A stretch of DNA of 64,000 nt from Dehalococcoidia bacterium (GCA_965247585.1 CBDFHC010000004.1:66554-130553), one strand, 5' to 3'; numbered from the stretch's first letter, positions 1,830 through 64,000 are shown. Made by a program: numbers and translations. The notes: generated by a model from the sequence alone, not told the origin.

Positions 1830-1849
1830 ACTAAGGAGGGCCGAGAGGC

Positions 1850-1945: not shown

Positions 1946-2008
1946 TCTGACTATGTTACTAAGAAAAAGGTTAGCATGGAAAGGAAGGGCGGTCAACGGG
2001 CGTGGTAG

Positions 2009-40040: not shown

Positions 40041-40467
40041 CGCGGTATGGGTTCGTCCTTCGAGGGCCTCAGGATGAGCGGGTTGAAGCGGCGGTTGGGG
40101 AATAGGATTGCTCCAGATAATCGAGCGGGAGAGGGCAGGCTGGAGTGGAATGAACGACACGGGATGCCGGGGTGGGACTTGCTCTCCCCCCACACCCAGA
40201 TTCTTCGAACCTCACGGACGGACTCAGAATGACATACAAACTGTCTGGAGCGTGGATATGGTGACGCGGGAAGGGTTAAGGGAGCCGTAGGGGATTTTAT
40301 CGAGGCAATCGGCCATGGCGATGGGGATAGCCACGACGAAGGACTGCAAATCACAGGTTGGTGGTGCCCACCCACCCGCCCAGGGAGGTTTCTAAAAGTT
40401 TTTCTGAGGGACACCCTCAGACTCCCGGCAGCCACCACCCAGGTCCCCTGCACCCTCCTGTGCGGCG
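40041..40467 (+). repeat. Intergenic repeat cluster 21 (C-mid, C-left, A, B) inside the operon
   Basis: C-mid 40041-40092, beginning 10 nt upstream of the soxG-like ATG. C-left 40175-40240, A 40313-40392, B 40399-40467 (arm-less hairpin-2 variant). Confidence 0.9.
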
Positions 40468-45136: not shown

Positions 45137-45545
45137 CAAGGTGCTCTCGCACCTTATCGACCATCCCCCTAACCCTCTTCCTGTCCAGGAAGGGGGAAGA
45201 AAAACGAATTCTCTGAGGGACACCCTCAGACTCCCGGCAGGGAACCCAGGTTCCCTGCACCCTTCTAGATTATCAACGGGGTCAAGTTACTTTAGAATTG
45301 TCGCACTCTTAATCCTAGGTTTCGGCAAGGTGCTATCGCACCTTATCGACCATCCCCCTGACCCTCTTCCCGGCAGGGAACCCCTCTCTTAATCCTAGGT
45401 TTCGGCAAGGTGCTATCGCACCTTATCGACCATCCCCCTGACCCTCTTCCTGTCCAGGAAGGGGGAAGAAAAACGAATTCTCTGAGGGACACCCTCAGAC
45501 TCCCAGCAGAAGGGCTCTGCCCCTCTGCACTCTCCGATTTGCTGC
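45137..45545 (+). repeat. Intergenic repeat cluster 22 (E, E2, B, tandem E x2, E2, B) inside the operon
   Basis: E copies at 45137-45181, 45327-45370 and 45407-45450. A near-perfect 80-bp tandem unit sits at 45306-45370 and 45386-45450. B 45208-45272 (cagggaaccc class) and B 45476-45545 (cagaagggc class). Confidence 0.9.
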
Positions 45546-49704: not shown

Positions 49705-49848
49705 AGGGAATCGCCCACGGCTGTTGAGACCGGCGCCACCAGGGACGAAAAACCAGGGTTACATTTCACCACCTGCTCATCTGGACCGATGGAAAGCGGT
49801 ATGGGCTCGTCCTTCGAGAGCCTCAGGATGAACGGGTTGGATGTGTAG
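49702..49848 (+). repeat. Intergenic repeat cluster 23 (F, C-mid)
   Basis: F begins at the stop codon of the preceding gene (tagagggaatcgcccacggctgttgagaccggcgccaccagggacgaa). C-mid 49796-49848. Confidence 0.85.
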
Positions 49849-51903: not shown

Positions 51904-52314
51904 CTACGGTCGGAACCAATTCTCCACGAGAAGCTCCGGCACACGGCTGAAGTGGCGGACGTTTCCCGTGACCACCGTAAGTCCGTGCGCCAGTGCGATG
52001 GCGGCGATGCGGATGTCAGAGTCACCGATGGGGGTGCCGGCGCGGGCCAGTCCGGCCCTAATCTCACCGTAGAGCTGAGCGGACGAGGTGTCGAAGGGGA
52101 GCACAGGAAGATTCGCCAGGACCTCGTTTTCTATCTTACTGATTGCCTCTGGGTCCCTGGCTTCCACTCGAAAGGCACCATAATAGAGCTCGCCCACAGT
52201 GATGGAAGAGGTAAACTGCAACTGGGCAGGCACGCTGACCAGCCTATTTCTAAGAATGGGAGAAGGCGAGCGGTGGGAGAGGTTAATAAGAATGTCGGTG
52301 TCGAGAAGGTACAT
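51904..52314 (-). CDS. vapC: PIN-domain ribonuclease toxin (VapC-like)
   Basis: 136 aa. MYLLDTDILI provides the first acidic PIN residue, with later conserved acidic positions. Its ATG overlaps the antitoxin stop (TAATG). Confidence 0.85.
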   Translation of the reverse strand: MYLLDTDILINLSHRSPSPILRNRLVSVPAQLQFTSSITVGELYYGAFRVEARDPEAISKIENEVLANLPVLPFDTSSAQLYGEIRAGLARAGTPIGDSDIRIAAIALAHGLTVVTGNVRHFSRVPELLVENWFRP

Positions 52315-52604
52315 TACTCCTCTAGGTTGACCGGTCTCCCAAGGTCCTCCTCACGGCTACGGTAGATATCCTCAACCAGTTCATCAAGCACATCGTCACC
52401 GACGTCGCGCCATAAGCCCACCAAGGCGAGGGCGCCCCGGGGCGGCCTGGGGTTAGCGCGGTAAAGCTCTAGGAATTGCAGGTCTTCCATGCTTACCAGA
52501 GCGGCCGTGGGCTTGCCTCGCTTCTCGATGACGATGCGCTCTTTGCCGTAGGCGGCTCGGGCTACGAGGTCAGATAGCTGGGCTTTGGCTTGGGCCGCAG
52601 GCAC
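52314..52604 (-). CDS. Phd/YefM-type antitoxin
   Basis: AQAKAQLSDLVARAAYGKERIVIEKRGKPTAALVSMEDLQFLE is the typical Phd/YefM N-terminal fold pattern. GTG start at 52604; an upstream CTG is possible. Confidence 0.75.
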   Translation of the reverse strand: MPAAQAKAQLSDLVARAAYGKERIVIEKRGKPTAALVSMEDLQFLELYRANPRPPRGALALVGLWRDVGDDVLDELVEDIYRSREEDLGRPVNLEE

Positions 52605-52640
52605 TTTGTTCAGATTCGTTATGACCCCGCTTATTGGTCG

Positions 52641-52652
52641 AATTGGCCAATT
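52641..52652. promoter_or_regulatory. Perfect 12-bp palindrome, candidate antitoxin operator
   Basis: aattggccaatt lies 37-48 nt upstream of the antitoxin start. Type II TA operons are commonly autoregulated through palindromic operators. Confidence 0.3.
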
Positions 52653-52675
52653 GGACCAAGTATATCATCACCGGG

Positions 52676-52790
52676 GAATCAGCTATAGCGATGGGTAGTG
52701 TCACCACGAAGGGCTGAAATTCGAAGGTTGGTGGTGCCCGCTCCCCTTCGAGGGCCTTCGGATGAGCGGGCATGGAGGGCTGAAGGTTTT
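52676..52790 (+). repeat. Intergenic repeat cluster 25 (A fused to the C-mid 3' part)
   Basis: gaatcagctatagcgatgggtagtgtcaccacgaagggctgaaattcgaaggttggtggtgccc joined to gctccccttcgagggccttcggatgagcggg. Confidence 0.85.
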
Positions 52791-53009
52791 ATTTTTAGGC
52801 GAATTTCTTGAGCTGAACCGGCAGATGTGCGTACCGGCAGGGTATCCGGGGTATCGGGTGTTTGCTAAGATGTCCGCGCCCTATAGGGAACGGGCAGGGT
52901 TGAAAGACAGTAGAGGCCGGCGGCGGGGCCAGCACCCAAAGAGGTGCGGCGGAAGACTATGACGATGGCACCAGCTAAAAAGCCGGTCCGATGTTGGAGG
53001 TAGCCGAAG

Positions 53010-54131
53010 ATGAACGGTGAGACGGCGGAGGTAGTTATTGTTGGGGGAGGGATTGTGGGGGTGAGCACGGCGTACCTGCTGGGGAAGGCGGGGGTGAAGG
53101 GCGTGGTGGTGGAGCGGGACTCGATTGGGAGCCATGCTTCGGGGTTTGCGTATGGGGGGATTGGGGGTAGCGGGGTGCCGGAGCCGATGGCCCCGATTGG
53201 CCGGGAGGGGTGGAAGCTGCATAACGAGTTCGCCAAGACGCTGCCGGAATCCACGGGGATAAATTTTGATTTCCGGTACAGGTCCTCTATGTACTTGGCG
53301 TTTAACCAAGCGGAGGTTGACGGGCTAAAGGCGTCGCTGCCGTGGCGGCTAGGGGAGCCGGGAGCCAAGATTCGGTGGCTCAGCGGCGATGAGGCGCGGA
53401 AATTGGAGCCACGGGTTTCGCCGGAGGCCATTGGGGCGCTGGTGGACGAGTTGCAGGCAGACCTGGAACCGTACCGGCTTAGCCTGGCATTGACGCAAGA
53501 GGCGGAGAAGCTGGGGGCCACGGTGCGGCACGGAAACGTGAAGGGTCTGAAGAGGCAAGGCCGGAAGGTGACGGCGGTGGTGCTGGAAAGCGGGGAGATA
53601 GCGTGCGACCGGGTGGTGCTGGCGATGGGGCCGTGGAGCGCGGAGGCGTCGGAGTGGCTGGGGGTGCCGATCGAGATTAGGCCGCTGAAGGGTCAGATAC
53701 TGCGGCTACAGGCGCCGGGTGCGCCGGTGCAGTGCTCGGTTGGATGGTCGGGGAATTACGCGATCACCAAACCGGACGGGCTGCTGTGGGCGGGCACCAC
53801 GGAGGAGGAAGTGGGGTTTGACGAGAACCCCAGCAGCGAGGCGCGGGACAATATCATGGCGTCGGTGATCAAGACGATGCCGTTCATGATAGACGCTCGG
53901 CTGGCGCAGCATACGGCGTGTCTGCGTCCGCTGGCGTCGGACGGCGTGCTAGTGCTTGGAGAGGCGCCGGGATGGGAGGGTGTTTACGTGGGAACAGGAG
54001 CGGGGCGGCAGGGCATCCGGTTGGGGCCCGGTATGGCGCGGGTGATTGTGGACTTGATTACAAAAGGGAGCACCGATCTGCCGATTAAGGCGTTTGACCC
54101 AGGGCGGTTTGCGACGTCCCCAATTGGCTAG
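53010..54131 (+). CDS. FAD-dependent oxidoreductase (DAO family), copy 3
   Basis: 373 aa with the N-terminal motif VVIVGGGIVGVSTAYLLGKAG. SD ggaggt. Confidence 0.8.
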   Translation: MNGETAEVVIVGGGIVGVSTAYLLGKAGVKGVVVERDSIGSHASGFAYGGIGGSGVPEPMAPIGREGWKLHNEFAKTLPESTGINFDFRYRSSMYLAFNQAEVDGLKASLPWRLGEPGAKIRWLSGDEARKLEPRVSPEAIGALVDELQADLEPYRLSLALTQEAEKLGATVRHGNVKGLKRQGRKVTAVVLESGEIACDRVVLAMGPWSAEASEWLGVPIEIRPLKGQILRLQAPGAPVQCSVGWSGNYAITKPDGLLWAGTTEEEVGFDENPSSEARDNIMASVIKTMPFMIDARLAQHTACLRPLASDGVLVLGEAPGWEGVYVGTGAGRQGIRLGPGMARVIVDLITKGSTDLPIKAFDPGRFATSPIG

Positions 54132-54156
54132 TTGATCCGAAGGCCGCCGTCAGGGG

Positions 54157-55881
54157 CTAGCGGGCTATGGCGTAGCCTTCGCGACGGCTGTCAGCGCCGG
54201 CGCGGAGGATGCCACGGTCGTGGTCGACTTCTATGGCGGCGAGGTTGCCAGCCTTGACGGCCCAATCATCCCAGACTTCGACGCGGTGGCCACGGCGTTC
54301 AAGCTCGGCGACGACGGCAGGGTCGATGCGACCTTCCAAGGTGACGAGTCCGGGGCTGTAGGCGTGGGGCCAGAAGGAGCCCGGGTAGCTGGAGGTGGCA
54401 AAGCGGGGAGCTTCAATGGCCTGCTGGGGGTCCATGCCGAACTCGACGATGTTGATGAACATTTCGGCCATGGCCTGACATTGGATGTCGCCTCCGGGGG
54501 TGCCGAAGGGCATCCAGGGCCGGCCGTTCTTGAAGGCCAGGGCGGGGTTGGGGGTGAGGCGGGGCCGCTTACCGGGGGCCAGGGCGCTGGGATGGGAGGG
54601 GTCCAGCCAGGACTGGTTGCCGCGAGACGAGAGGATGAAGCCGAGGCCGGGAACGATAGGGGTGCCGCCGAAGCCATCACTGGGGGTGGCTGAGAAGGCG
54701 TTGCCCCAGCGATCGACGGCGCAGGTGTAGCTGGTGTCTTCGCCCAGGCCGCCGGGGGCGGCGGCGGGTTGGGGCATTGCACCTACGGATCGGGCACCAG
54801 GCTGGAAGGCCCAAGGGTCGCCGGGGGTGGGCATTTCGGGGCAGGCGCGGCGGGGGTCCACCGCGGCGCGTCTAGATTCGGCGAAGGCCTTGGATAGGAG
54901 GCCGGCCATGGGAACGTCGACGAACTCCGGGTCGCCGTAGTAGGCATGACGGTCGGCGAAGGCGAGCTTGAAGGCCTCCAGCAATGTGTGGATGTAGTCA
55001 GCGCTGAGGTAGCCCATGCTTCGAAGGTCAAAGCCCTCCAGCAGGTGGAGGAACTGGATGAGCAGGGGACCCTGGCACCAGGGGCCGCAGGTGGCGACGT
55101 CTATGCCCTTGTAGCTGCCCCACTGAGCGGGCTCCAGCTTGACGCGGAAGGAGGCCATGTCTTCCATGGTGAGGAGGCCGCCCTGCTCCCGGCAGAAGCG
55201 GACCATCTCCTGGGCCAGCTCACCTTTGTAGAAGAAGTCACGGACAGCACGGATGGCGGCCTCGCGGCCGCTAGAAGCGGCGGCGCGCTCGACATCTATC
55301 AAGCGGCGGAAGGTGTTGGCCAGGTCTTTCTGGACCAGGACGTCGCCGACCTGGGGGGCGACGCCGTTGGGCATGAAGACGTAACGGCTGGAGGGCCAGG
55401 GAAGTCCCCCGGCGATGTACTGGCTAAGGAGGTGCGGCACAGGGAAGCCATCTTCGGCGAGTTGAAGGGCGGGGGTAACGGCCTGCTCGAAGGACATGGT
55501 GCCGTAGAGCTCAAAGGCGGTGAGCCAGGCATCGGCGGCGGAGGGAGTGACGGTACGGAGGATGCCCTCGGGGAGGTCGCCGCCGTGGTGTCGCTGGAAG
55601 AATTCGATGGAGGCGGCGCGAGGCCAGCGACCCAAGCCGCTAATGGTAACGGTCTCGTTCTTTTCGGCGTGGTGGAGGATGATGGGGGCAACGCCGCCGA
55701 AGCTGGTCCACTGGGGAAAGACGACGTTGATGGCGATGCCGGATGCGACGCCGGCGTCGATGGCGTTACCGCCCTCTTCGAGGATGCGGAAGCCGGCGGT
55801 GGCGGCGTGGTAGTGACCAGCGGAAACGGCGTGGGTGACGCCCATAATAGCGGGTTTGAAGGATGTGAGGCCCAGGGCCAT
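54157..55881 (-). CDS. Gamma-glutamyltransferase family protein
   Basis: 574 aa. GGT-family pattern including the autoprocessing/nucleophile Thr context (GEDTSYTCAVDRWGNAFSATPS) and the C-terminal GADSRREG. SD ggaggtg. Confidence 0.85.
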   Translation of the reverse strand: MALGLTSFKPAIMGVTHAVSAGHYHAATAGFRILEEGGNAIDAGVASGIAINVVFPQWTSFGGVAPIILHHAEKNETVTISGLGRWPRAASIEFFQRHHGGDLPEGILRTVTPSAADAWLTAFELYGTMSFEQAVTPALQLAEDGFPVPHLLSQYIAGGLPWPSSRYVFMPNGVAPQVGDVLVQKDLANTFRRLIDVERAAASSGREAAIRAVRDFFYKGELAQEMVRFCREQGGLLTMEDMASFRVKLEPAQWGSYKGIDVATCGPWCQGPLLIQFLHLLEGFDLRSMGYLSADYIHTLLEAFKLAFADRHAYYGDPEFVDVPMAGLLSKAFAESRRAAVDPRRACPEMPTPGDPWAFQPGARSVGAMPQPAAAPGGLGEDTSYTCAVDRWGNAFSATPSDGFGGTPIVPGLGFILSSRGNQSWLDPSHPSALAPGKRPRLTPNPALAFKNGRPWMPFGTPGGDIQCQAMAEMFINIVEFGMDPQQAIEAPRFATSSYPGSFWPHAYSPGLVTLEGRIDPAVVAELERRGHRVEVWDDWAVKAGNLAAIEVDHDRGILRAGADSRREGYAIAR

Positions 55882-55978
55882 GGGGCACCTCCAACGGGTT
55901 TCTTAAGCGGGATGACAGCAGGCACAGCATACCGGGTTTCGCGCGATTGCTCTACCCGGTGGAGCGAAGGCGGAGGGT

Positions 55979-56143
55979 TCAGCGGGCTACCAGAACGATG
56001 ACCACGACGACAACGGCGATGATGGCCAACATCATGACGAGGCAAGTGAGACGGAACATCATTTTCTGGATGGTTAGGGGGAGGAAGATGATGGTCATTG
56101 GGAGCTTCATCAAGCGTATGAGTAGCCCAACCAGAGAAAACAC
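55979..56143 (-). CDS. Possible small two-helix membrane protein (54 aa)
   Basis: A GTG at 56143 lies 4 nt after SD gagaggtga. It encodes VFSLVGLLIRLMKLPMTIIFLPLTIQKMMFRLTCLVMMLAIIAVVVVVIVLVAR, which is very hydrophobic. The region has lower GC than its surroundings. No homology was recognised. Confidence 0.3.
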   Translation of the reverse strand: MFSLVGLLIRLMKLPMTIIFLPLTIQKMMFRLTCLVMMLAIIAVVVVVIVLVAR

Positions 56144-56259
56144 CCGCTCACCTCTCTTATTTTTGGTTGCCGAAGGGCGGGCCTTCGGCCGACCGGAGGG
56201 CAAACCTTAAACCCAGAGCGATACGGATGTCCAGGGTGGAGGGGGAGAAGAATTAGCAG

Positions 56260-56408
56260 CGGGGGATGGCGTTGCTACCACGAAGGACTGCGAATCACGG
56301 GATGGTGGTGCCCACCGTCCCACCCAGAAATGTTTTTAAAAGCGAATTTCTGAGGGACACCCTCAGACTTCCGGCAGGGAACCAGGGTTCCCTGCACCCT
56401 CCTGCAGG
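56260..56408 (+). repeat. Intergenic repeat cluster 26 (A, B)
   Basis: A 56260-56340 (ggggatggcgttgctaccacgaaggactgcgaatcacgggatggtggtgcccacc...). B 56346-56408. Confidence 0.9.
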
Positions 56409-56459
56409 GCGCGTTATCGGAACCCTAGGCTAGGGAGGTTTCGTACCCGACGGCGGAGG

Positions 56460-57710
56460 CTAAGCGGTCCCGCCCCCTTTTACGATGCGGCCTCCCTGGA
56501 TGACGATGGGGATTTTCTTTTCGTCCTGGAGGACGGTTATGTCTTCCAGAGGGTTGCCGTCGACGACAATGATGTCAGCCAGCTTGCCCTCTTCCAGGGT
56601 GCCGATTTCGTTGCCCATGCCGACGAGGTTGGCGTTGGTCTTGGTGGCGGAGATGATGGCCATGGCGGGGCCCATGATGGCGGCCTTGAGCTCCAGTTCC
56701 AGGGCCTTTCGGTTGGCATCGGGGCCGTAGACATCGGAGCCTGAGGCGACGTTGACGCCGACGGCGATGGCAATTTCGACGCTCTGGGGAGCGCGGCCCT
56801 TGGCGAGGTTGATCTTGTCAAGCGTGGTCTGAGGAGTGCCGCCTTCGACGGTGTGCTTCGACTTAAGCTCGTAGACGGAGAGGGTGGGCACCAGGTACAT
56901 GTCAGCCTCTTTCATTAGGTAGGCGGACTCTTCATCCAGGAAGTTGCCGTGCTCAATGCTGAGGATGCCGGCCTGGACGCAGTTTTTGATGCCCTCTGGG
57001 ACGTATACGTGGGCCATGACGGGCTTGCGGACGACGCGGGCCTCATAGACGATGGCGGCCAGCTCCTCGACGGTGTACTGGGGGGCGTCCAGTGGGTCCG
57101 TGGGGGAGGCGGCGCCACCACCTGCCATGACCTTTATCTGGTCGGCGCCGGTGCGGAGCTGCTCTCGGGCCGCCTGGCGGACCTGGGGAACGCCGTCCGC
57201 GATGGCGGGGGGCGGCATGAGGGGGTGCCAGCGGCCGCAGGGGTCCGAGCGGTCGTGTCGCTGCCGCATGTCGCCGTGGCCTCCGGTCTGGGAGATGAAG
57301 GCGTTGGCGACGAACATGCGGGGGCCGGGGATGAGGCCGCGCTCGACTGCGAGCTTGAAGCTCCAGTCGCAGCCACCGGCGTCGCGGACGGTGGTGTAGC
57401 CGTACATGAGGGTATCCTTGATCATCCGGGCGACGGAGTAGGCGTAGACGGCGCCGGGGTGTTTGTTCTCGGTATCGGCGGCGAGGTTCTCCTCGGGGAA
57501 GGCGACGTGGGCATGAGCGTCGATGAGGCCGGGGAGGATGGTCTTGCCGGTGGCGTCGATAACGGTGGCGCCGCGGGGCGCGGAGACCTGGGAGGCGGGG
57601 CCGACTGCCTTGATACGGTCGCCCTCGATAACGAGGGTGCCGGGGCCGTAGGGGTCACGTCCGGTGCTGTCAAATATGGTGGCGTTTTCTAGGACTAGGG
57701 TGTCGGCCAT
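56460..57710 (-). CDS. Amidohydrolase family protein (metal-dependent hydrolase)
   Basis: 416 aa. GLIDAHAHV metal-binding motif with later HV/HG and D residues in TIM-barrel order. SD gggagg. Confidence 0.85.
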   Translation of the reverse strand: MADTLVLENATIFDSTGRDPYGPGTLVIEGDRIKAVGPASQVSAPRGATVIDATGKTILPGLIDAHAHVAFPEENLAADTENKHPGAVYAYSVARMIKDTLMYGYTTVRDAGGCDWSFKLAVERGLIPGPRMFVANAFISQTGGHGDMRQRHDRSDPCGRWHPLMPPPAIADGVPQVRQAAREQLRTGADQIKVMAGGGAASPTDPLDAPQYTVEELAAIVYEARVVRKPVMAHVYVPEGIKNCVQAGILSIEHGNFLDEESAYLMKEADMYLVPTLSVYELKSKHTVEGGTPQTTLDKINLAKGRAPQSVEIAIAVGVNVASGSDVYGPDANRKALELELKAAIMGPAMAIISATKTNANLVGMGNEIGTLEEGKLADIIVVDGNPLEDITVLQDEKKIPIVIQGGRIVKGGGTA

Positions 57711-57935
57711 GGTGGACCTCCCGATGGGGTTGGGGTGGGTGGGTTCCAGTGCGGTTGGAGTATAGCAGGTGGGGGTGGGGTGGGGAGGGAAAGGGGGGCT
57801 TTGGTATCATCTAAGCTCATGAGGTTTTGGATGGTATAGCAAGCTGCGGAATCCTTTGGTGCCACTATATTAATGGCTTTTGGACATGGGCAAGACGGGG
57901 CGCTCCGACGATGTTGAAAAAATTCAGAATTCAGG

Positions 57936-58364
57936 ATGACGGTAATTGTTGTCGTCGCTGTTGGAACGCTCATTTGCGGAGTATATTGTGACCCGCAGTT
58001 TGAGTCCGTTGAGTGGACTGTGGTGAACAATACAGCTATTCCGATTGGAGGGTTTCTAAACGGTGTAGCGAGCGGTCCGATTCTTCCACCTGGGGGAGAT
58101 GGCGGATTCATCCGCGGCGCGCCGGACAAGGCTCAACAGGGCGAGACAAGATACATTTTCAGGGCTCTTGAGTTCGTTCTGGGCGAAGGCCTGCTAGCAG
58201 GTCCGGGCGGCACTGGGCATATGGGAAAGTTGGTGTTTTGCAGGGAATACACGTGGAATGAAATGGAGGCGATGGAGTTTAAGATAGTCGTAACGCAGAA
58301 TATTCCTGGGGCGGTGCACTACGTCGAAGGGGAGCCGTGTCCGGTGGCGAACGAGCAGGGGTGA
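57936..58364 (+). CDS. Hypothetical protein with a hydrophobic N-terminus (secreted or membrane-anchored), lower-GC island
   Basis: 142 aa starting MTVIVVVAVGTLICGVYC. No family recognised. Visibly lower GC than the flanking genes. Weak SD. Confidence 0.4.
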   Translation: MTVIVVVAVGTLICGVYCDPQFESVEWTVVNNTAIPIGGFLNGVASGPILPPGGDGGFIRGAPDKAQQGETRYIFRALEFVLGEGLLAGPGGTGHMGKLVFCREYTWNEMEAMEFKIVVTQNIPGAVHYVEGEPCPVANEQG

Positions 58365-58383
58365 CATTGCCCATTAAAGCTAC

Positions 58384-58707
58384 GTGATCCGGACCTGTGG
58401 GCAACTTTGGCGCGGACAAGAAGTTCACCTGGCAGCGACTGGAGGGGAGGCTGGGGAGGTTGACGCGATTGTTGAACGTGGCGGCCTGCTGGACCTGGTT
58501 GAAATCAAGACTGGTAGTTTGGCCCATCTCCGCGGGGAACACCTCGAGCAGCAATTGAGTGTATTATCTGACTACGCAGAAGAGCACATTGACGAATTCA
58601 CCGGCCAGAAGATACTTGTGATACACGGGTACCTGAAGCCGACGGTGAAACCACACGTCAAAAAATACACGGCCGACACAGGTTTCGAGGTGGTATATCT
58701 TCCATGA
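58384..58707 (+). CDS. Orphan Rhs-associated C-terminal module with a PD-(D/E)xK nuclease-like core (possibly frameshifted)
   Basis: GEVDAIVERGGLLDLVEIKTG matches the D...(D/E)xK core of YraN/Hjc-like restriction-endonuclease-fold proteins. Nucleotides 58399-58446 are about 80% identical to the Rhs core tail at 59688-59735, but that tail is read in a different frame from this ORF. Confidence 0.45.
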   Translation: MIRTCGQLWRGQEVHLAATGGEAGEVDAIVERGGLLDLVEIKTGSLAHLRGEHLEQQLSVLSDYAEEHIDEFTGQKILVIHGYLKPTVKPHVKKYTADTGFEVVYLP

Positions 58708-59561
58708 AGCCTATCTGGTACACCCGTACATTTCTGGAAAGCGACCGTATTTCTCGAATGGGCATGGAACGCTATATCGGCATTCTGTTGAATCGCGGCT
58801 GGCAGCCAGTTGTTGACTACGACACACCCTTCGGTACCGCAGAATTCTTAAAGCTAGATTCGGAGGTTCGGGGGTTAGAGACGGGCAGTCTAGATCAGGC
58901 AATTGAAGCGTCAGTTCAGCAGCAAGAAGCCTACATAGGGTTTGGGCGAAGCTTCCCCTTCGAAAGGGACGGCCAACAAAACGTATACCGAGTACTGTTG
59001 GATCTATTTGTAAAGCATTTTGATGCGCCCAAAGGGTTGGACAACGAAGAAGACTGTGAAACCGCCAAGCCATTTCTAGAGGTTGGATTTGATGTGGACC
59101 TCATCCAGTGGCAGGGTATACCGGGCGCCTATAAAGAGATTTACGAGTTGAGTTGCACGATGTTTGAGTCGTTAAACCCCCTCTACGGATTCGGAGATGG
59201 GTCTGATTTAGAGTACATGGGACTTGGGATGTGTGATGGGCCATCGTATCCCGAAATCCTAGGAGACACACGGCCACCTATATTCTGGCTCAACTACTTT
59301 ACGAAAAAGCACTTGGAGATAATAGGTGAAAACCGGGTCCTTGAGTGTGCCGAGGTTGAGGTGAGGGAATATGAGACCGGGGGGACCTCTCTGTTCTTGG
59401 GCTATCCGTTGAGCTTCTATCCGATCAGTGGCTGGACTCCGAGTAAAGGCGAATGGGTCGGTGAGGAGGATTACGAGATAAGAATTATTGAAAGCCTTAA
59501 TCTGAGAAGTTGGTGGGTGCCAGATAAGCATCCGTTGTTGATGAAACACCCGTACCTGTGA
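58704..59561 (+). CDS. Candidate cognate immunity protein (285 aa, no family recognised)
   Basis: ATGA overlap with the preceding toxin-like ORF indicates translational coupling. Acidic cytoplasmic protein with lower GC. The call is positional only. Confidence 0.35.
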   Translation: MKPIWYTRTFLESDRISRMGMERYIGILLNRGWQPVVDYDTPFGTAEFLKLDSEVRGLETGSLDQAIEASVQQQEAYIGFGRSFPFERDGQQNVYRVLLDLFVKHFDAPKGLDNEEDCETAKPFLEVGFDVDLIQWQGIPGAYKEIYELSCTMFESLNPLYGFGDGSDLEYMGLGMCDGPSYPEILGDTRPPIFWLNYFTKKHLEIIGENRVLECAEVEVREYETGGTSLFLGYPLSFYPISGWTPSKGEWVGEEDYEIRIIESLNLRSWWVPDKHPLLMKHPYL

Positions 59562-59562
59562 T

Positions 59563-59826
59563 TTGGTGGCGACGCTGCGCTATTTCCATCAGGACCACTT
59601 GGAGAGTTCCAGCGTGGCGACGGACAGCACCGGAGCGTCGGTGGGGACGCAGACGTACAAGCCGTTTGGGGAGACTCGCACGTCCACGGGCAGCTTTGGC
59701 ACTGACAAGAAGTTCACGGGGCAACGGCTGGACGGCACGGGGCTCTACTTTTACAACGCTCGGTACTATGACGCAACGCTGGGCAGGTTTGTGGGGGATA
59801 GCCCCCGCCGATTCCCCGAAAAGTGA
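59563..59826 (+). pseudogene. Truncated Rhs/YD-repeat core C-terminal fragment
   Basis: RYFHQDHLESSSVATDSTG...TYKPFGE...KKFTGQRLDGTGLYFYNARYYDATLGRFVGDSP is the conserved end of the Rhs core (YYHxDHLGS ... GLYYYGARYYDPxLGRFxSxDP). It begins abruptly 1 nt after the preceding stop and ends at a stop that abuts a module-B hairpin. There is no N-terminal core and no toxin domain. Confidence 0.8.
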
Positions 59827-59866
59827 CGGCAGAGGGGCCAGCCCCTCTGCACTCCCCGGATTTTGG
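59827..59866 (+). repeat. Intergenic repeat cluster 27 (B hairpin-2 tail only)
   Basis: cggcagaggggccagcccctctgcactccccgg with a perfect 9-bp stem gcagagggg/cccctctgc (59829-59850). Directly abuts the stop of the Rhs fragment. Confidence 0.8.
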
Positions 59867-59994
59867 GGACGTATCAGAAACGGACGCTGCTTAGGCGTAG
59901 ACCGAGCCGGAGGGCGGGATTTATAGTAGGATATACGGTGCCTGGGCTTCGAGTGTCTCTCGGGCCGGGCGTTACTTATTAGAGAGGTGTTTTG

Positions 59995-62358
59995 ATGGCG
60001 GACTACGAGCCAAATGTGGTTCTTGCCACAAGGAAGTATGACGTTGTTGGTACTCGGCCCATCCGGCACGACGGCGCGGATAAGGTGACGGGGGCGGCGA
60101 AGTATGGCGCGGACTATAATCCCACGCTACTGCTGTATGGAGCAGTGCTCCGGAGTCCGCACGCCCACGCGAAAATAAAGTCGATCGACGTTAGCGCAGC
60201 GGAGGCGCTGCCCGGGGTTCACGCGGTGGTGACGCACCGGGATTTCCCGGGACGGCACCAGGACGCCATGGGCATCGCTTCCAGCGTGGTTGACAGGATC
60301 GGGGACCAGGTTAGGGCCAAGCTCGAAGTACCGTTGTCAGTGGAGGTTCGGAGCGAGACTTCCGTTGGCTTGCAACGGCAGCGGGACAATGTGCTGGCGA
60401 GCAGCAAGGCGCTGTATAAGGGCCAGCAGATCGCCGCGGTGGTGGCGGACAGCCTGCACACAGCCGAGGAGGCGGTGTCGCTGATAAAGGTGGGCTATGA
60501 GGTGCTTCCCTCGGTGCTGACAGCGCCGGAGGGAGCCAAGGACGGCGCACCGTTGCTCCATGACGACTTGAAGACCACGGAGCTGGGCGAGGAGACGGAG
60601 AAGCACAGCAACCTGGCGACGCATTTCAAGCACACGTTGGGTGACGTAGAGAAGGGGTTCGCGGAGGCGGATGTGGTAGTGGAGCACGAGTTTAACACGG
60701 CGACGGTACACCAGGGGTACATCGAACCGCACAACGCCACGGCGATGTGGAACAAGGACGGCCGGGTGAGCGTGTGGTGCAGCACGCAGGCGCCTTTCGA
60801 GGTTAGGGACTCGATGTCGGACCTGCTGGAGTTGCCTGTTTCGAAGATCAGGATCACGCCAATGGAGATAGGCGGCGGGTTCGGCGGGAAGATAAACGTG
60901 TACCTGGAGCCGTTGGCGGCGATGCTGTCTAAGAAGACCGGGAGACCTGTAAAACTGACGATGCCCCGAACGGCGATATTCGAAGGGACTGGTCCGACAT
61001 CGGGGTCCTACGTTCGGGTGAAGATAGGGGCGAAGAAGGACGGGACGCTGACGGCGGGACAGGCGTACCTGGCCTACGAGGCGGGGGCGTATCCGGGGGC
61101 GCTGGTGGACGCCGGGGCGCTGTGCGTTTACGCGGCTTATGAGATACCGAACCAGGAGATAGACGGATACGACGTGGTGGTGAACAAGCCGAAGGTGGCG
61201 GCGTACCGGGCGCCGGGAGCGCCGAACGCGGCGTTCGCGACGGAGTCTGTGATGGACGATCTGGCGGAGAAGCTGGGAATGGACCCGCTGGAGTTTCGGC
61301 TGAAGAACGCAGCAAAAGAAGGGACGCGGCGCGCGGTGGGACCAACGCACCAGAAGATAGGGGTGGTGGAGGTGTTGGAGGCGATGAAGGACCACGACCA
61401 TTGGAACTCGCCGCTGGAGGGCCCGAACCGGGGCCGGGGCGCGGCGGTTGGGTATTGGTTCAACATTGGGCTGCCTTCGAGCTGCACGATAAGCGTGGAG
61501 AAGGACGGAACGGTGTCGCTGGTGGAGGGGAACCCGGACATCGGCGGGACGAGGGCATCGCTGGCGATGCAGGCGGCGGAGGTGCTGGGAATTCGGGCGG
61601 AGGATGTGATGCCGACGGTGGTGGATACGGACCTGACGGGTTTCACGGCGCTGACGGCGGGAAGCCGTACGACGTTCGCGACGGGTTGGGCGGCGTACGA
61701 GGCGGCGCAGGGTGTAAAGGCGCAGATGATAGCCCGGGCGGCAACGATATGGGAAGTGGACGCCGACTCGGTGGAGCTGAAAAGCGGGACGTTCCAATCT
61801 AAGACGGACCCGGAGCTAAAGATGGGGTTCAAGGAGCTGGCGGGCCAGCTTCTGGAAACCGGAGGGCCGATTGTTGGCAGCGGCACGGTGAACCCATCGG
61901 GCGTGGGAGGCTCGGCCTCTGGGATGATAATTGACGTGGAGGTGGACCCGGAGACGGGGAAGGTGGAGGTGCTGCGGGTGACCGCGGTGCAGGACGCGGG
62001 GAAGGCGGTGCACCCCAGCTACGTGGAGGGTCAGATGCAGGGCGGCAGCGTGCAGGGAATAGGCTGGGCGCTGAACGAAGAGTATTACTACAACGACGCG
62101 GGCGAAATGGTCAACGGGTCGTTCCTGGACTACCGGATACCGACGTCGCTGGACCTGCCAATGATAGACACGGTGATAGTGGAGGTGCACAACCCCGGGC
62201 ACCCATACGGGGTGCGTGGGGTGGGGGAGGCATCGATAGTGCCGCCGCTGGGAGCGGTGGCGAACGCGGTGAAGAACGCGATTGGAACTAGGATTACAGA
62301 CCTGCCGATGAACCCGGGCGCGGTGCTGGAGGCGCTGTGGAAGAAGGAAGGGAAGTAA
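59995..62358 (+). CDS. Xanthine dehydrogenase / aldehyde oxidase family molybdopterin-binding (large) subunit
   Basis: 787 aa. a/b-hammerhead region (LPGVHAVVTHRDFPG), the GGGFGGK motif and C-terminal molybdopterin-binding domains. ATG at 59995, 5 nt after SD agagaggtg; the track starts at the TTG at 59992. Confidence 0.9.
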   Translation: MADYEPNVVLATRKYDVVGTRPIRHDGADKVTGAAKYGADYNPTLLLYGAVLRSPHAHAKIKSIDVSAAEALPGVHAVVTHRDFPGRHQDAMGIASSVVDRIGDQVRAKLEVPLSVEVRSETSVGLQRQRDNVLASSKALYKGQQIAAVVADSLHTAEEAVSLIKVGYEVLPSVLTAPEGAKDGAPLLHDDLKTTELGEETEKHSNLATHFKHTLGDVEKGFAEADVVVEHEFNTATVHQGYIEPHNATAMWNKDGRVSVWCSTQAPFEVRDSMSDLLELPVSKIRITPMEIGGGFGGKINVYLEPLAAMLSKKTGRPVKLTMPRTAIFEGTGPTSGSYVRVKIGAKKDGTLTAGQAYLAYEAGAYPGALVDAGALCVYAAYEIPNQEIDGYDVVVNKPKVAAYRAPGAPNAAFATESVMDDLAEKLGMDPLEFRLKNAAKEGTRRAVGPTHQKIGVVEVLEAMKDHDHWNSPLEGPNRGRGAAVGYWFNIGLPSSCTISVEKDGTVSLVEGNPDIGGTRASLAMQAAEVLGIRAEDVMPTVVDTDLTGFTALTAGSRTTFATGWAAYEAAQGVKAQMIARAATIWEVDADSVELKSGTFQSKTDPELKMGFKELAGQLLETGGPIVGSGTVNPSGVGGSASGMIIDVEVDPETGKVEVLRVTAVQDAGKAVHPSYVEGQMQGGSVQGIGWALNEEYYYNDAGEMVNGSFLDYRIPTSLDLPMIDTVIVEVHNPGHPYGVRGVGEASIVPPLGAVANAVKNAIGTRITDLPMNPGAVLEALWKKEGK

Positions 62359-62383
62359 GGGCGTTAGCTTAAGGAAACGCGAG

Positions 62384-62421
62384 GGCCCGGTCCGCTGAGG
62401 CGGGCCGGGCCTTTTGTTTTT
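62384..62421 (+). terminator. Intrinsic terminator after the molybdoenzyme gene
   Basis: ggcccggtccgc-tgag-gcgggccgggcc (12-bp stem including one G-U pair) followed by ttttgttttt, 26 nt after the stop. Confidence 0.85.
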
Positions 62422-62427
62422 GGAGGG

Positions 62428-63028
62428 GGTCTCTGGGGGGCACCCTCGGAATTACTGCAGGGGATCCAGGTTTTCTGCACCGTCCTGCGCGGTGGTAATT
62501 GTTTGTAAGGTGAGCCGCAAAGGGTTGCGAATCGAAGGTTGGTGGTTCCCACCGTCCCGCCCCGGAAGGTTATTATGAATTACTGAGGGACACCCTCAGA
62601 CTCCCGGCAGGGAACCTAGGTTCCCTGCACCCTCTTGTTTGACGGTTCTTCATAGACTGGTTGGGGCTATTGACGAAACGATCGTCCCCGGAGGGAGTGA
62701 GCGATGCCACGACGCGTGGAAATTCAGGATTGGAATCCCAAGCGGGCGCCGCGGTAGGACTTGCTCTCCCCCCGCACCCAGATTCTTCGATCCTCGCGGG
62801 CGGACTCGGAATGACATGGTGGGGTCGGAATGCGGTATGGGCTCGTCCTTCGAGGGCCTCAGGATGAGCGAGTTGGAGGCGTAGCAAGCTTATTTTCATA
62901 GGAATGACATGTCTTTTGCGAGCGTTGAACGCGGGCCAATGTGACGCTGAAAAGAACGAAGAAGTCAAAAACACAGGCTCTCAGGATGATCGGGAATGGG
63001 AGGCCGAAGGTAATTTTTCATAGCAAGG
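62428..63028 (+). repeat. Intergenic repeat cluster 28 (degenerate B, A, B, C-left, C-mid, C-right, C-mid fragment): long composite
   Basis: Degenerate B 62428-62493, A 62510-62572, B 62578-62645, C-left 62755-62820, C-mid 62829-62890, C-right 62891-62950. The 10-mer gaatgacatg at 62809-62818 and 62902-62911 brackets C-mid, as in cluster 3. Confidence 0.9.
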
Positions 63029-63113
63029 GCGGCTATAATGGACACGGTTGTGAGGTGGACTCAAGGCGAGGAAGCGGTCTTGCAGGAAGAGCCCGGTGAG
63101 AAAGGAAACAGTG

Positions 63114-64000
63114 ATGAGCGAGAAGAAGATTGGGGTGGCGGCGATGGGAGGAGACGCGAAGAAGGTGCTGTCCCGGATTCAGGAGATGGAGCGTAGGGGG
63201 ATTGAGGTGGCGTGGCTGACGACGGGGGGCGCGGGCGTGGACGGTATGTCGATATTCGCGGCGGCGGGGGCGACCACGGAGCAGATTTTGATGGGGACGT
63301 GTATTGTGCCCACGTTCCCGAGGCACCCGATTGTGACGGCGCAGCAGGTGCAGGTGATAGCCAGCCTGGCGCCAGGGCGGTTCCGGCTCGGGCTGGGGCC
63401 AAGTCACCGTCCGACGATGCAAGGGATGTTCGGTATTGATTTCCACACGCCGCTGACGAACCTGAGGGAGTACGTTCACATTGTTCGGACGCTGCTGAAC
63501 GAAGGGTCAGTGGACTTTGACGGGAGCCACTACCACGCCCACGCGCGGATAGCGGCGCCGGTGCCTGACGTGCCGATAATGGCGTCGGCGCTGCGGACGG
63601 GGTCGTACGAGTTCTGCGGCGCGGAGGCGGACGGGGCGATAAGCTGGGTATCGCCGTACGAGTACTTACGGGACGAGGCGCTGCCGGCGATGCGCGCCGG
63701 GGCGGAGGCGCAGGGGAGAGAGACGCCGCCGCTGGTGGCCCACGTGCCGATCTGCGTGAGCACCAACGCGGAGGAGGTGCGGGCCGCGGCGCGGGAGCAG
63801 TTGGCCACTTACCCGCGACTGCCGTACTACGCGCGGATGTTCGCGGCGGCGGGGTTTCCCGAAGCGGTGGAGACGAACTCTTGGAGCGACGGGATGATTG
63901 ACGCGGTGGTGCTGCACGGATCGGAAGGAGAGGTGGCAGAACGGTTGAAAGGTCTATTCGAGTACGGAATTGGGGAGATCATAGCGCACGTGGTCTCGGT
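63114..64000 (+). CDS. LLM-class F420/flavin-dependent oxidoreductase, 3'-truncated by the window end
   Basis: My translation from the ATG at 63114 is open to the window end: MSEKKIGVAAMGG...CIVPTFPRHPIVTAQQVQVIASLAPGRFRLGLGPSH...VVLHGSEGEVAERLKGLFEYG. This is the typical pattern of LLM-class F420-dependent oxidoreductases. It is absent from the ORF track because no stop falls inside the window. Confidence 0.75.
   Translation, partial: MSEKKIGVAAMGGDAKKVLSRIQEMERRGIEVAWLTTGGAGVDGMSIFAAAGATTEQILMGTCIVPTFPRHPIVTAQQVQVIASLAPGRFRLGLGPSHRPTMQGMFGIDFHTPLTNLREYVHIVRTLLNEGSVDFDGSHYHAHARIAAPVPDVPIMASALRTGSYEFCGAEADGAISWVSPYEYLRDEALPAMRAGAEAQGRETPPLVAHVPICVSTNAEEVRAAAREQLATYPRLPYYARMFAAAGFPEAVETNSWSDGMIDAVVLHGSEGEVAERLKGLFEYGIGEIIAHVVS

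What the first reader, a model, noticed from the sequence alone, without database searches (positions are those of the whole stretch)
57800..59866. Lower-GC island carrying an orphan Rhs toxin/immunity-like cassette and a decapitated Rhs core, with no full-length rhs gene
Seen in sequence: between the amidohydrolase gene and the molybdoenzyme gene, GC drops visibly over about 57800-59561. The region contains four elements. (i) A 142-aa ORF with a hydrophobic N-terminus. (ii) A 107-aa ORF with a PD-(D/E)xK-like core (GEVDAIVERGGLLDLVEIKTG). (iii) A 285-aa acidic ORF overlapping it by ATGA. (iv) Starting 1 nt after that ORF's stop, and back at high GC, an 87-codon fragment that is unmistakably the C-terminal end of an Rhs/YD core (YFHQDHL...GLYFYNARYYDATLGRFVGDSP). 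That fragment terminates against a module-B hairpin. About 48 nt at the 5' end of ORF (ii) (58399-58446) are about 80% identical to the core tail at 59688-59735. Established knowledge: rhs loci accumulate orphan core-tail/toxin/immunity cassettes that recombine with the main gene through the conserved core-tail sequence, and restriction-endonuclease-fold toxins are common Rhs/CDI C-terminal domains. Inference: this is a relic or reservoir of polymorphic-toxin cassettes whose main rhs gene is absent from the window or lost. The immunity-like gene may persist as orphan protection.
Basis: partly seen in the sequence, partly recalled or inferred. Interest (0 to 1): 0.65.

Follow-up and report, generated by a model that had tools for sequence, protein, structure and literature searches.

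The report
Decayed Rhs toxin-cassette relic, strain-variable
Between two housekeeping genes of a Chloroflexota genome lies a small foreign-looking DNA island that is the eroded remains of an Rhs bacterial-warfare toxin locus; the toxin is broken, one possible protective (immunity) gene is still intact, and this is an ordinary, already known kind of genomic leftover.

Summary
GC falls to 51.1% over 57800-59561 (window 62.6%, the lowest such window in 64 kb). GC3 of the three island ORFs is 0.56-0.58 against 0.82±0.03 in host genes. The 87-codon fragment matches the RHS core model TIGR03696 (E=6.6e-11). The 48-nt internal repeat is real (83%).

It is a relic, not a usable reservoir. The second tail lacks the PANPQ...DPxGH end and has no toxin. 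The first tail remnant is only 48 nt and is out of frame with ORF(ii). ORF(ii) lacks about 42 N-terminal residues (helix 1 and strand 1) found in its only relative, P0055, so it is probably not a working toxin. PD-(D/E)xK similarity is repeated but always sub-threshold. ORF(iii) is intact, acidic and has a host-like ribosome-binding site. It resembles, at borderline significance, a protein in the immunity position after a full-length Rhs in a metagenomic locus. ORF(i) is probably a divergent allele of a resident lipoprotein.

Closely related strains share the flanks and the eroding tail but carry different DNA between 57789 and the tail, so the locus is a strain-variable hotspot. Whether the genome has a full-length rhs could not be tested.

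The parts
57711..57789 (.). G-rich tract upstream of the amidohydrolase start codon. It is conserved in related strains, and its end (~57789) is the left breakpoint of the variable segment.
   Evidence: Homology of L164, L165, L166 and L167 to the window stops at 57789 in every case.
57790..59568 (.). Strain-specific, compositionally foreign segment (the low-GC island).
   Evidence: GC is 51%, the window minimum. GC3 of its ORFs is 0.56-0.58 against 0.82 in host genes. L164 and L165/L166 carry unrelated sequence here.
57936..58364 (+). ORF(i), 142 aa, with a signal or lipoprotein-like N-terminus (…LICGVYC…), pI 4.56. Probably a highly divergent allele of the small lipoprotein found at this position in related strains, not clearly part of the Rhs cassette.
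   Evidence: It matches only itself among 5.8 billion proteins and has no family hits. It aligns end to end with the L165 lipoprotein: SW 46 against 25.4±4.0 for shuffles, p≈8e-4.
58388..58447 (+). Rhs core-tail remnant 1 (SGPVGNFGADKKFTWQRLEG). A TGA stop lies immediately upstream (58385-58387). Everything from TGLYFYNARYYD onward is missing, and it is out of frame with ORF(ii).
   Evidence: 83% identity over 48 nt to 59688-59735. tblastn gives 75% over 16 aa, E=2.4e-4.
58384..58707 (+). ORF(ii), 107 aa: an N-terminally truncated remnant of a PD-(D/E)xK-like domain. Residues 1-18 are tail DNA read in the wrong frame. True homology to P0055 starts at residue 19 (~58438). The D…ExK motif is retained (GEVDAIV…LVEIK).
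   Evidence: An exhaustive phmmer search found only itself and P0055 (56% identity; query residues 19-107 match P0055 61-148), aligned. There is no SD before the GTG. The weak YraN hit has E=0.19.
58704..59561 (+). ORF(iii), 285 aa, acidic (pI 4.51, 47 D+E against 25 K+R), ATGA-coupled to ORF(ii), with a host-like SD (GAGGTGG, 10 nt upstream). Candidate orphan immunity gene.
   Evidence: Its only relative is P0002 (70% identity, truncated at 184 aa) on the same sister contig as P0055 and P0058. Residues 183-278 align to the immunity-position protein of L088: BLASTP pair E=2e-6, database-level E=0.008, shuffle p≈6.5e-6. The SD is shown.
59569..59797 (+). Rhs core-tail remnant 2 (ATLRYFHQDHL…TGLYFYNARYYDATLGRFV). 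It is called as ORF 59563-59826, has host-like composition, and is cut at both ends.
   Evidence: TIGR03696 E=6.6e-11, profile positions 1-48 of 76. Alignment A3 shows that PANPQSLNRYSY…DPxGH and any C-terminal domain are missing. Orthologous remnants exist in L165/L166 (82% DNA identity) and in the sister genome (P0058, 92% aa identity).
59798..59826 (+). Deletion junction. About 230 nt present in L165, encoding a small two-TM ORF, are absent here. The tail frame runs into GDSPRRFPEK and a stop.
   Evidence: Global alignment of the window against L165 and the translation.
59827..59858 (+). Module B hairpin (CGGCAGAGGGGCCAGCCCCTCTGCACTCCCC) of a dispersed two-module intergenic repeat. Module A is absent here, and also in L165.
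   Evidence: At least 10 other copies in the window all have modules A and B. It is conserved in L165.

Best explanation
The island is the decayed remnant of an rhs orphan (core-tail / toxin / immunity) array, sitting in a strain-variable intergenic hotspot between an amidohydrolase gene and a xanthine-dehydrogenase-family molybdoenzyme gene of a Chloroflexota (Dehalococcoidia-like) genome.

Proposed history, with shown and inferred steps marked:
1. An Rhs core tail once ended next to the module-B hairpin upstream of the molybdoenzyme gene. Shown: a remnant of the same tail sits at this position in the window and in strain L165/L166, and the sister genome encodes a 92%-identical tail fragment whose locus could not be viewed.
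2. A lower-GC cassette was placed upstream of it, in the manner of C-terminal displacement. The cassette comprised its own tail handle, a PD-(D/E)xK-like nuclease domain and a translationally coupled acidic partner. Shown: the direct repeat of tail sequence 1,289 nt apart and the GC3 contrast. Inferred: the order of events.
3. Deletions then removed the following. Shown from present-day junctions: (a) everything upstream of the first tail remnant; (b) the stretch from tail codon …QRLEG to the middle of the nuclease domain, which also shifted the frame; (c) about 230 nt after the second tail. Inferred: the timing, and whether the cassette arrived already damaged.

As a result no deliverable toxin can be made. 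There is no YD shell, no DPxGH cleavage site, and the nuclease domain is incomplete. ORF(iii) is still full length with a good ribosome-binding site. It may persist as an orphan immunity gene against a nuclease toxin of the P0055 type delivered by neighbouring bacteria. This last point is inferred and untested.
For: - Rhs identity of the second tail: TIGR03696 E=6.6e-11. It aligns with 18 Chloroflexota tails.
- First tail remnant: 83% over 48 nt, same orientation, in the Rhs frame but not the ORF(ii) frame.
- Composition: host GC3 is 0.82±0.03; the three ORFs are 0.56-0.58; the tail is 0.80.
- Truncation of ORF(ii): P0055 residues 61-148 match ORF(ii) 19-107, leaving 60 residues of P0055 without a homologous counterpart. 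The predicted secondary structure of P0055 is α-β-β-β-α-β-α-β, with D69 in strand 2 and E82-x-K84 in strand 3. P0055 gives repeated weak hits to Cas4, PDDEXK_1, YqaJ and exonuclease models, E=0.0045-0.15.
- The sister genome carries all three elements (P0055, P0002, P0058) on one 1.33-Mb contig.
- Strain comparison: L164, L165 and L166 are collinear up to 57789. L165 resumes inside the tail (82%), then has module B and the molybdoenzyme gene (92%). Its interior is different, and its tail is more eroded (GLCFYNARCYD).
- Parallels elsewhere: 41 of the 62 tail loci that could be judged are orphan-like. They include tandem tails with no main rhs within 10 kb (L089, L097, L081-L083) and classical arrays (L088, L094, L112).
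- ORF(iii) against the L088 immunity-position protein: pairwise E=2e-6, shuffle p≈6.5e-6, reverse search of the window E=2e-4. That protein follows a 2,114-aa Rhs whose C-terminal domain carries a D…EAK signature.
- Literature: orphan rhs-CT/rhsI modules retain variable amounts of upstream rhs sequence, sometimes with in-frame stops (PMC3150448).
Against: - No family model reaches its threshold for ORF(i), (ii) or (iii).
- The P0055 model has low confidence (pLDDT 49) and Foldseek against PDB gives nothing with E≤0.001.
- The ORF(iii) model is unusable (pLDDT 31).
- The ORF(iii)-L088 similarity is borderline at database level (E=0.008, five queries), is not seen directly with L149's protein, and hhalign gives only P=0.007.
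- P0055 shows no detectable similarity to the L088 or L149 Rhs C-terminal domains.
- Adjacency of P0055, P0002 and P0058 in the sister genome is assumed, not seen.
- No full-length rhs has been shown at this locus in any strain. The interval may only ever have held fragments.
Confidence: 0.72

Rival explanations
1. A silent but usable reservoir. The cassette is kept so that it can recombine, through the conserved tail sequence, with a full-length rhs gene elsewhere in the genome and give it a new toxin and immunity pair.
For: Two tail copies in direct orientation. The tail fragment is 92% identical to the sister genome's P0058, whereas none of nine housekeeping proteins tested has a copy at 90% or above on that contig. 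This could reflect homogenisation against a master rhs gene. Orphan modules are known to be activated by recombination (established knowledge; framework in PMC3150448).
Against: The handle in front of the nuclease remnant is only 48 nt at 83% identity. It is out of frame, lacks the DPxGH boundary, and the nuclease domain itself is N-terminally truncated. The second tail has nothing behind it. In close strains the tail diverges faster than the flanks and loses conserved tyrosines. A distant main gene would have to recombine across the chromosome.
Confidence: 0.08
2. ORF(ii) and ORF(iii) form an independent two-gene module, such as a nuclease toxin with an antitoxin or a small defence system. 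It merely landed next to old Rhs debris and was never part of an Rhs protein.
For: ATGA translational coupling. The pair is conserved in a second genome. The weak hits of P0055 are to Cas4-like or exonuclease models rather than to named polymorphic-toxin domains. P0055 is called as a free-standing 148-aa protein.
Against: The Rhs tail remnant abuts the start of the P0055-homologous sequence within about 9 nt (58438-58447). There are no PADLOC hits for ORF(ii) or ORF(iii), and only sub-threshold ones for P0055. The Rhs tail fragment co-occurs with the pair on the sister contig. ORF(iii) resembles a protein in the immunity position after a full-length Rhs.
Confidence: 0.12
3. The island ORFs are not genes. 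They are chance open frames in a stretch of foreign or junk DNA.
For: ORF(i) has no homologue at all. ORF(ii) has no ribosome-binding site and a chimeric 5' end. No family models match.
Against: ORF(iii) is 285 codons open in 51% GC DNA and is 70% identical at protein level to P0002. ORF(ii) is 56% identical to P0055 over 89 residues with no gaps or stops. ORF(iii) has a host-like SD. ORF(i) aligns collinearly with a lipoprotein at the same position in related strains.
Confidence: 0.06

Closest known systems
Orphan rhs-CT/rhsI modules and 'C-terminal displacement' in rhs loci of Enterobacteriaceae (Dickeya dadantii, Yersinia pseudotuberculosis, Salmonella; PMC3150448, PMC7043789)
   Same: A fragment of the 3' end of the rhs core lacks the delivery part. 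It is followed by a variable, lower-GC region with a nuclease-type C-terminal domain and a closely coupled small or medium downstream ORF. Tail copies are tandem. The amount of retained core sequence varies between strains, with stops in the retained part.
   Different: No full-length rhs lies upstream in the window (at least 57 kb) or at this locus in related strains. The toxin part is internally deleted and out of frame. The second tail has lost its DPxGH end, toxin and immunity. The host is a Chloroflexota, where Rhs delivery routes are unstudied. The tail consensus here ends …PANPQSLNRYSYCLNNPLKYxDP(S/T)GH rather than the enterobacterial PxxxxDPxGL.
Vestigial or decapitated Rhs elements of E. 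coli K-12 (for example the RhsE core remnant and short core-fragment ORFs). From my own knowledge, not checked here.
   Same: A core fragment without its N-terminal bulk, retained with adjacent low-GC extension ORFs. A non-functional remnant.
   Different: The fragment here is much shorter (87 and 16 codons). The comparison is by recollection only.
Main-less Rhs-tail fragments in other Chloroflexota genomes and metagenomes found here (L081, L082, L083, L089, L097, L168)
   Same: Isolated tail fragments of 70-210 codons among housekeeping genes, with frameshifts or in-frame stops, and no large rhs gene within 10 kb.
   Different: Most of those still carry the DPxGH end, and many have an open C-terminal domain of 200-330 codons. 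None encodes relatives of ORF(i), (ii) or (iii).
TseV/TsiV: T6SS VRR-Nuc (PD-(D/E)xK) effectors and their DUF3396 immunity proteins (PMC9635880; Pfam PF11876)
   Same: A PD-(D/E)xK-type nuclease toxin neutralised by an immunity protein of roughly 250-300 aa encoded immediately downstream. The L088 immunity-position protein, which resembles ORF(iii), gives a weak TsiV hit (E=0.02-0.09).
   Different: ORF(iii) itself and L149's protein do not hit TsiV. P0055 gives no VRR-Nuc hit. The link is one weak, transitive step and is not evidence of membership.

Membership tests
Full-length Rhs / YD-repeat polymorphic toxin | Long YD-repeat shell (more than 1,000 residues of YD repeats) | tested here: not met
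   There is no YD-like motif in any of the six frames of the 64-kb window. tblastn with the tail and with upstream Rhs sequence (P0009, P0012, P0058) finds only the two remnants.
Full-length Rhs / YD-repeat polymorphic toxin | RHS repeat-associated core domain (TIGR03696) | tested here: met
   59563-59826: E=6.6e-11, 42.6 bits against a cut-off of 32.5, but only profile positions 1-48 of 76.
Full-length Rhs / YD-repeat polymorphic toxin | Conserved C-terminal boundary and self-cleavage motif (DPxGL in enterobacteria; …NNPLKYxDP(S/T)GH in this clade) | tested here: not met
   Alignment A3 shows that the window copy diverges after GRFV and stops 10 codons later. Remnant 1 ends even earlier, at QRLEG.
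Orphan rhs-CT/rhsI module | Retained 3' fragment of the rhs core without the N-terminal delivery region | tested here: met
   There are two fragments, of 16 and about 76 homologous codons.
Orphan rhs-CT/rhsI module | Toxin C-terminal domain encoded in frame after the core fragment and its DPxGL-type motif | tested here: not met
   The tail remnant and ORF(ii) are in different frames, the motif is absent, and the domain lacks about 42 N-terminal residues relative to P0055 (60 non-homologous residues in P0055 against 18 in ORF(ii)).
Orphan rhs-CT/rhsI module | Immunity ORF immediately downstream of the toxin-coding sequence | tested here: inconclusive
   The position and ATGA coupling fit. There is borderline similarity to the L088 immunity-position protein. 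No immunity family model is matched. Neutralising activity cannot be tested here.
Orphan rhs-CT/rhsI module | Location downstream of a full-length rhs gene | tested here: not met
   None is present in the window, and L165 has none at the same locus. The rest of the source genome could not be searched, because it is absent from the genome collection.
Orphan rhs-CT/rhsI module | Extension and immunity region of lower GC than the core | tested here: met
   GC3 is 0.56-0.58 in the ORFs against 0.795 in the tail.
PD-(D/E)xK nuclease superfamily (restriction-endonuclease-fold toxin) | D…(D/E)xK catalytic motif on consecutive strands | tested here: met
   The sequence shows GEVDAIV…LVEIK in ORF(ii) and GSIDAIV…LVEIK in P0055. 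Both are invariant in alignment A2 and lie in predicted strands 2 and 3.
PD-(D/E)xK nuclease superfamily (restriction-endonuclease-fold toxin) | Significant match to a family profile | tested here: not met
   The best hits are all below threshold. ORF(ii): YraN E=0.19. P0055: Cas4 E=0.0045-0.017, PDDEXK_1 E=0.047, YqaJ E=0.12, PDB Cas4 E=0.18.
PD-(D/E)xK nuclease superfamily (restriction-endonuclease-fold toxin) | Complete α-β-β-β-α-β core fold | tested here: inconclusive
TsiV / DUF3396 immunity (PF11876) | Match to the Pfam model | tested here: not met
   ORF(iii), whole or as its C-terminal segment, gives no hit at E≤10. Only the L088 protein hits, and weakly (E=0.02-0.09, below the 25-bit cut-off).

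The most novel reading that the evidence does not exclude
P0055/ORF(ii) and ORF(iii)/P0002 define a previously undescribed pair: a PD-(D/E)xK-type Rhs toxin and a roughly 280-aa acidic immunity protein, distantly related to the immunity proteins that follow REase-like Rhs toxins in L088 and L149 and perhaps to TsiV. In this reading ORF(iii) is actively kept as an immunity-only gene, after loss of the toxin, at a recombination hotspot bounded by a G-rich tract and the Rhs tail. Related Chloroflexota strains swap small surface-protein and toxin-defence cassettes at this hotspot.
Probability: 0.2. Interest if true: 0.45.

Novelty: new member of a known kind. Interest (0 to 1): 0.3.

Why it matters
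This is a modest finding. It documents Rhs toxin-cassette turnover and decay in Chloroflexota, a phylum where interbacterial toxin systems are barely studied. It shows that isolated, decapitated Rhs tails are common there: 41 of the 62 related tail loci that could be judged are orphan-like. It flags two protein families with only two known members each that could be a new nuclease toxin and immunity pair. It also gives a cautionary example for annotation. The 107-aa 'toxin' ORF is a chimera of out-of-frame Rhs tail and a truncated nuclease domain, and the 70-87-aa 'RHS repeat-associated core domain protein' is a pseudogene fragment. It does not reveal a new mechanism.

Tried and rejected
- Exact look-ups of the island proteins and their sister-genome relatives (P0001, P0002, P0055, P0058) found no contig on record. 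The sister locus could therefore not be read.
- The genome-collection scan with the ORF(iii) alignment found nothing. The scan with the amidohydrolase found only relatives at 69% identity or less, without synteny or any island sequence. A junction comparison in species representatives was therefore impossible.
- The plasmid collection gave no match.
- There are no tRNA genes in the window, and no integrase was looked for or seen next to the island. A classical tRNA-targeted integrative island is therefore not indicated.
- The PADLOC and PHROGs libraries give nothing for ORF(i), ORF(ii) or ORF(iii).
- The two further hits of the exhaustive ORF(ii) search (P0056, P0057) are repeat and ankyrin proteins. 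I rejected them as spurious.
- The TsiV lead could not be extended from L088's protein to ORF(iii) or to L149's protein. A PDB profile search with the immunity alignment was empty.
- Toxin-side profile comparison of P0055/ORF(ii) against the L088/L149 Rhs C-terminal domains showed no relationship.
- A weak ORF(ii) hit in L103 lies in a different frame from that locus's Rhs C-terminal domain, so I dismissed it.
- The resemblance of the P0055 N-terminus (MKYGVHPTE) to the tail end (LKYxDPTGH) is too weak to use.
Full report
OBSERVATION. Every descriptive element of the finding is present.
- The four ORFs lie at 57936-58364 (142 aa), 58384-58707 (107 aa), 58704-59561 (285 aa, ATGA overlap) and 59563-59826 (87 codons).
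- The 57800-59561 segment has 51.1% GC against 62.6% for the window. This is 4.6 sd below equal-sized windows and is the lowest such window in the 64 kb.
- Twenty-three host genes have GC3 = 0.822±0.026. ORF(i), (ii) and (iii) have 0.58, 0.574 and 0.563 (z about -10), with codon-usage z-scores of -4.0 to -4.7. The Rhs fragment is host-like (GC3 0.795, z -1.1).
- The flanking genes are an Amidohydro_1 protein (orthologue annotated) and a MoCoBD_1/MoCoBD_2/Ald_Xan_dh_C molybdoenzyme.

THE RHS PIECES.
- The 87-codon fragment matches TIGR03696 (RHS repeat-associated core) above its cut-off (E=6.6e-11), but only over profile positions 1-48 of 76.
- I aligned it with 18 related tails, almost all from Chloroflexota/Dehalococcoidia. 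The clade consensus continues …GRFIS·D·IV··PANPQSLNRYSYCLNNPLKY·DP(S/T)GH and then a C-terminal domain. The window copy diverges right after GRFV and stops ten codons later. It is therefore cut at both ends and has no toxin.
- The 48-nt repeat (58399-58446 against 59688-59735) is 83% identical, with blastn E=2.5e-6 inside the window.
- Its Rhs reading (SGPVGNFGADKKFTWQRLEG) is in the frame of the small ORF 58397-58558. That frame is closed by a TGA four codons upstream and is not the frame of ORF(ii).
- Nothing else in the window resembles Rhs, and no YD motif occurs in any frame.
- The hairpin at 59827-59858 is module B of a dispersed two-module repeat. The ten other copies in the window all have module A directly in front. 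Here module A is missing.

THE ISLAND ORFS.
- None of the three ORFs reaches any Pfam, NCBIfam, PADLOC or PHROGs threshold.
- ORF(i) matches only itself among 5.8 billion proteins.
- ORF(iii) has one relative, P0002 (70% identity, but only 184 aa).
- An exhaustive HMMER search of 1.84 billion representatives with ORF(ii) found one true relative, P0055. It is 148 aa and 56% identical, and its residues 61-148 align to ORF(ii) 19-107.
- P0055 therefore has 60 residues upstream of the shared region, where ORF(ii) has only 18, a net loss of about 42. Those 18 are tail DNA translated out of frame.
- The predicted secondary structure of P0055 is α-β-β-β-α-β-α-β, with D69 in strand 2 and E82-x-K84 in strand 3. 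That is the PD-(D/E)xK order, but the model is poor (pLDDT 49) and Foldseek finds nothing significant.
- P0055 collects repeated sub-threshold hits to PD-(D/E)xK families: Cas4 E=0.0045-0.017, PDDEXK_1 E=0.047, YqaJ E=0.12, and PDB Cas4 E=0.18. The fold assignment is suggestive, not established.
- ORF(ii) keeps the D…ExK strands but lacks helix 1 and strand 1. It has no Shine-Dalgarno sequence, whereas ORF(iii) has a host-like GAGGTGG 10 nt upstream.
- I conclude that ORF(ii) is a pseudogene remnant. It was created when a deletion joined tail codon …QRLEG to the middle of the nuclease domain. The two homologies abut within about 9 nt, at 58438-58447.

ORF(iii) AS IMMUNITY.
- ORF(iii) is acidic (pI 4.51), coupled to ORF(ii) by ATGA, and full length.
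- In a metagenome scan with the tail alignment, locus L088 turned out to be a classical array. It has a 2,114-aa Rhs whose post-DPSGH domain carries a D…EAK signature, followed after 17 nt by a 255-aa ORF.
- ORF(iii) residues 183-278 align to that ORF. The statistics are BLASTP pair E=2e-6, database-level tblastn E=0.008, reverse search of the window E=2e-4, Smith-Waterman 78 against 33±5 for shuffles (p≈6.5e-6), and hhalign P=0.007.
- The L088 protein is clearly related to the 257-aa ORF that follows a similar Rhs in L149 (E=3e-8). It also gives a weak Pfam TsiV hit ('immunity for VRR-NUC', E=0.02-0.09).
- ORF(iii) and L149's protein do not hit TsiV. ORF(iii) against L149 is not significant on its own.
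- The immunity reading is therefore plausible and positionally consistent, but statistically borderline.

COMPARATIVE EVIDENCE.
- The source genome (contig 1,124,078 bp) and a sister genome (contig 1,329,889 bp) are absent from the species-representative collection. The nearest representatives are Dehalococcoidia/Chloroflexota MAGs at 69% identity or less, without synteny.
- The sister contig carries P0055, P0002 and also P0058, an Rhs-tail fragment 92% identical to the window's. P0058 extends about 17 codons further upstream and a little further downstream.
- None of nine housekeeping proteins tested has a copy at 90% or above on that contig.
- That same look-up revealed metagenomic contigs from close relatives.
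- L164 (85-93% DNA identity) and L165/L166/L167 (about 96%) are collinear with the window up to exactly 57789, at the end of a G-rich tract.
- L165 spans the whole interval. After 57789 comes a 123-aa lipoprotein gene (also in L164), then about 640 bp of stop-riddled sequence. Next is an Rhs-tail remnant orthologous to the window's second tail. That remnant is only about 30 codons long, 82% identical, and has lost conserved tyrosines (GLCFYNARCYD). After it come about 230-260 nt that the window lacks (a small two-TM ORF), then module B (again without module A), then the molybdoenzyme gene at 92%.
- Three conclusions follow:
  2. The tail next to module B is an old, shared, decaying relic whose 5' truncation point differs between lineages.
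  3. The interior is replaced between strains.
- ORF(i) aligns end to end with the L165 lipoprotein (SW 46 against 25.4±4.0, p≈8e-4). It has the same position, orientation, size and signal-plus-Cys N-terminus. It is best seen as a very divergent allele of that resident gene.

HOW COMMON IS THIS?
- Of 80 metagenomic loci with related tails, 41 have an in-frame stop within 300 codons upstream (orphan-like), 21 are ends of long rhs ORFs, and 18 cannot be judged. Most keep an open C-terminal domain of 200-330 codons.
- Both classical arrays (L088, L094, L112) and tandem or single tails with no rhs within 10 kb (L089, L097, L081-L083) occur.
- The closest outside tail (L168, 78% DNA identity) is again a relic. 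It has an in-frame stop and a 3' truncation just after GRFVSAD, next to a convergent amidase gene.
- This matches published descriptions of orphan rhs-CT/rhsI modules that retain variable lengths of core sequence, sometimes interrupted by stops (PMC3150448).

VERDICT.
- The island is a decayed rhs orphan array at a strain-variable hotspot, and a new member of a known kind.
- 'Relic' is supported and 'reservoir' is not. The toxin ORF is broken. The immunity role of ORF(iii) is possible.
- Whether a full-length rhs sharing this tail exists elsewhere in the genome could not be tested with the collections available.

Noticed in passing
window: module B copies at about 5006, 9768, 9962, 11260, 14278, 17096, 21594, 29054, 45504, 51705 and 59827; module A lies 22 nt upstream of each except 59827: A dispersed two-module intergenic repeat. 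Module A is the hairpin CTGAGGGACACCCTCAGACTCC and is followed directly by module B, the hairpin CGGCAGAAGGGCTCTGCCCCTCTGCACTCCCC. All copies are in the same orientation. It is REP-like or terminator-like, and its nature and function are unknown.
   Followed up: partly
window 56345-56404, with copies near 2177-2227, 3773-3830, 8308-8367, 22907-22962, 29772-29829, 31344-31403, 40401-40460, 45207-45263 and 62578-62634: A second dispersed repeat family of 40-60 nt, seen when the ends of related-strain contigs were matched to the window. Further families of about 85-92 nt lie at 5231-5315, 16823-16876, 19302-19359, 40042-40085, 49794-49848 and 62827-62911, and at 45137-45228, 45326-45370, 45406-45497 and 8290-8328. 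The genome is unusually rich in short intergenic repeats.
   Followed up: no
window 57715-57800: A G-rich tract on the + strand (runs of GGGG/GGGT, with potential to form a G-quadruplex) upstream of the amidohydrolase start codon. The breakpoint shared by all related strains lies at its end (~57789).
   Followed up: partly
window 1836-1951 (-): A TPP riboswitch (RF00059, 57.7 bits, above the gathering score).
   Followed up: no
L164:4991-7385 (related strain; corresponds to window ~53730): In the related strain an IS3-type element (HTH_Tnp_1 plus rve transposase genes) interrupts the DAO-family gene that is intact in the window (53010-54131). L164 also carries PhdYeFM/PIN and HepT/nucleotidyltransferase toxin-antitoxin pairs nearby.
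   Followed up: no
L088:172-7301 and L149:150-5035: Two full-length Rhs proteins, with NHL-type and BNR/Ycf48-like repeat inserts respectively. They share a C-terminal domain with a D…EA(K/R) signature and are followed by related ORFs of about 255 aa (E=3e-8). One of these gives a weak TsiV hit. This is possibly an undescribed Rhs nuclease and immunity family.
   Followed up: partly
L081:9753-10393, L082:9917-10462, L083:9974-10183, L089 (tails at 10169 and 11951), L097 (tails at 10184 and 11472): Isolated or tandem Rhs-tail fragments in other Chloroflexota and metagenomic contigs, with no full-length rhs within 10 kb. Several short C-terminal extensions (P0015, P0025, P0040) share a …E(E/F)G(V/L/M)D… block after DPxGH.
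   Followed up: partly
window 52000-64000: GC skew is positive in every 300-nt window of this stretch whatever the gene orientation. This suggests that the + strand here is the leading strand.
   Followed up: no
window 58589-58616 (+): A sigma-70-like promoter match (TTGACG, 16 nt, GATACT) lies inside ORF(ii), about 90 nt upstream of the ORF(iii) start. It is a consensus match only, but it sits where an internal promoter for an immunity gene would be.
   Followed up: no
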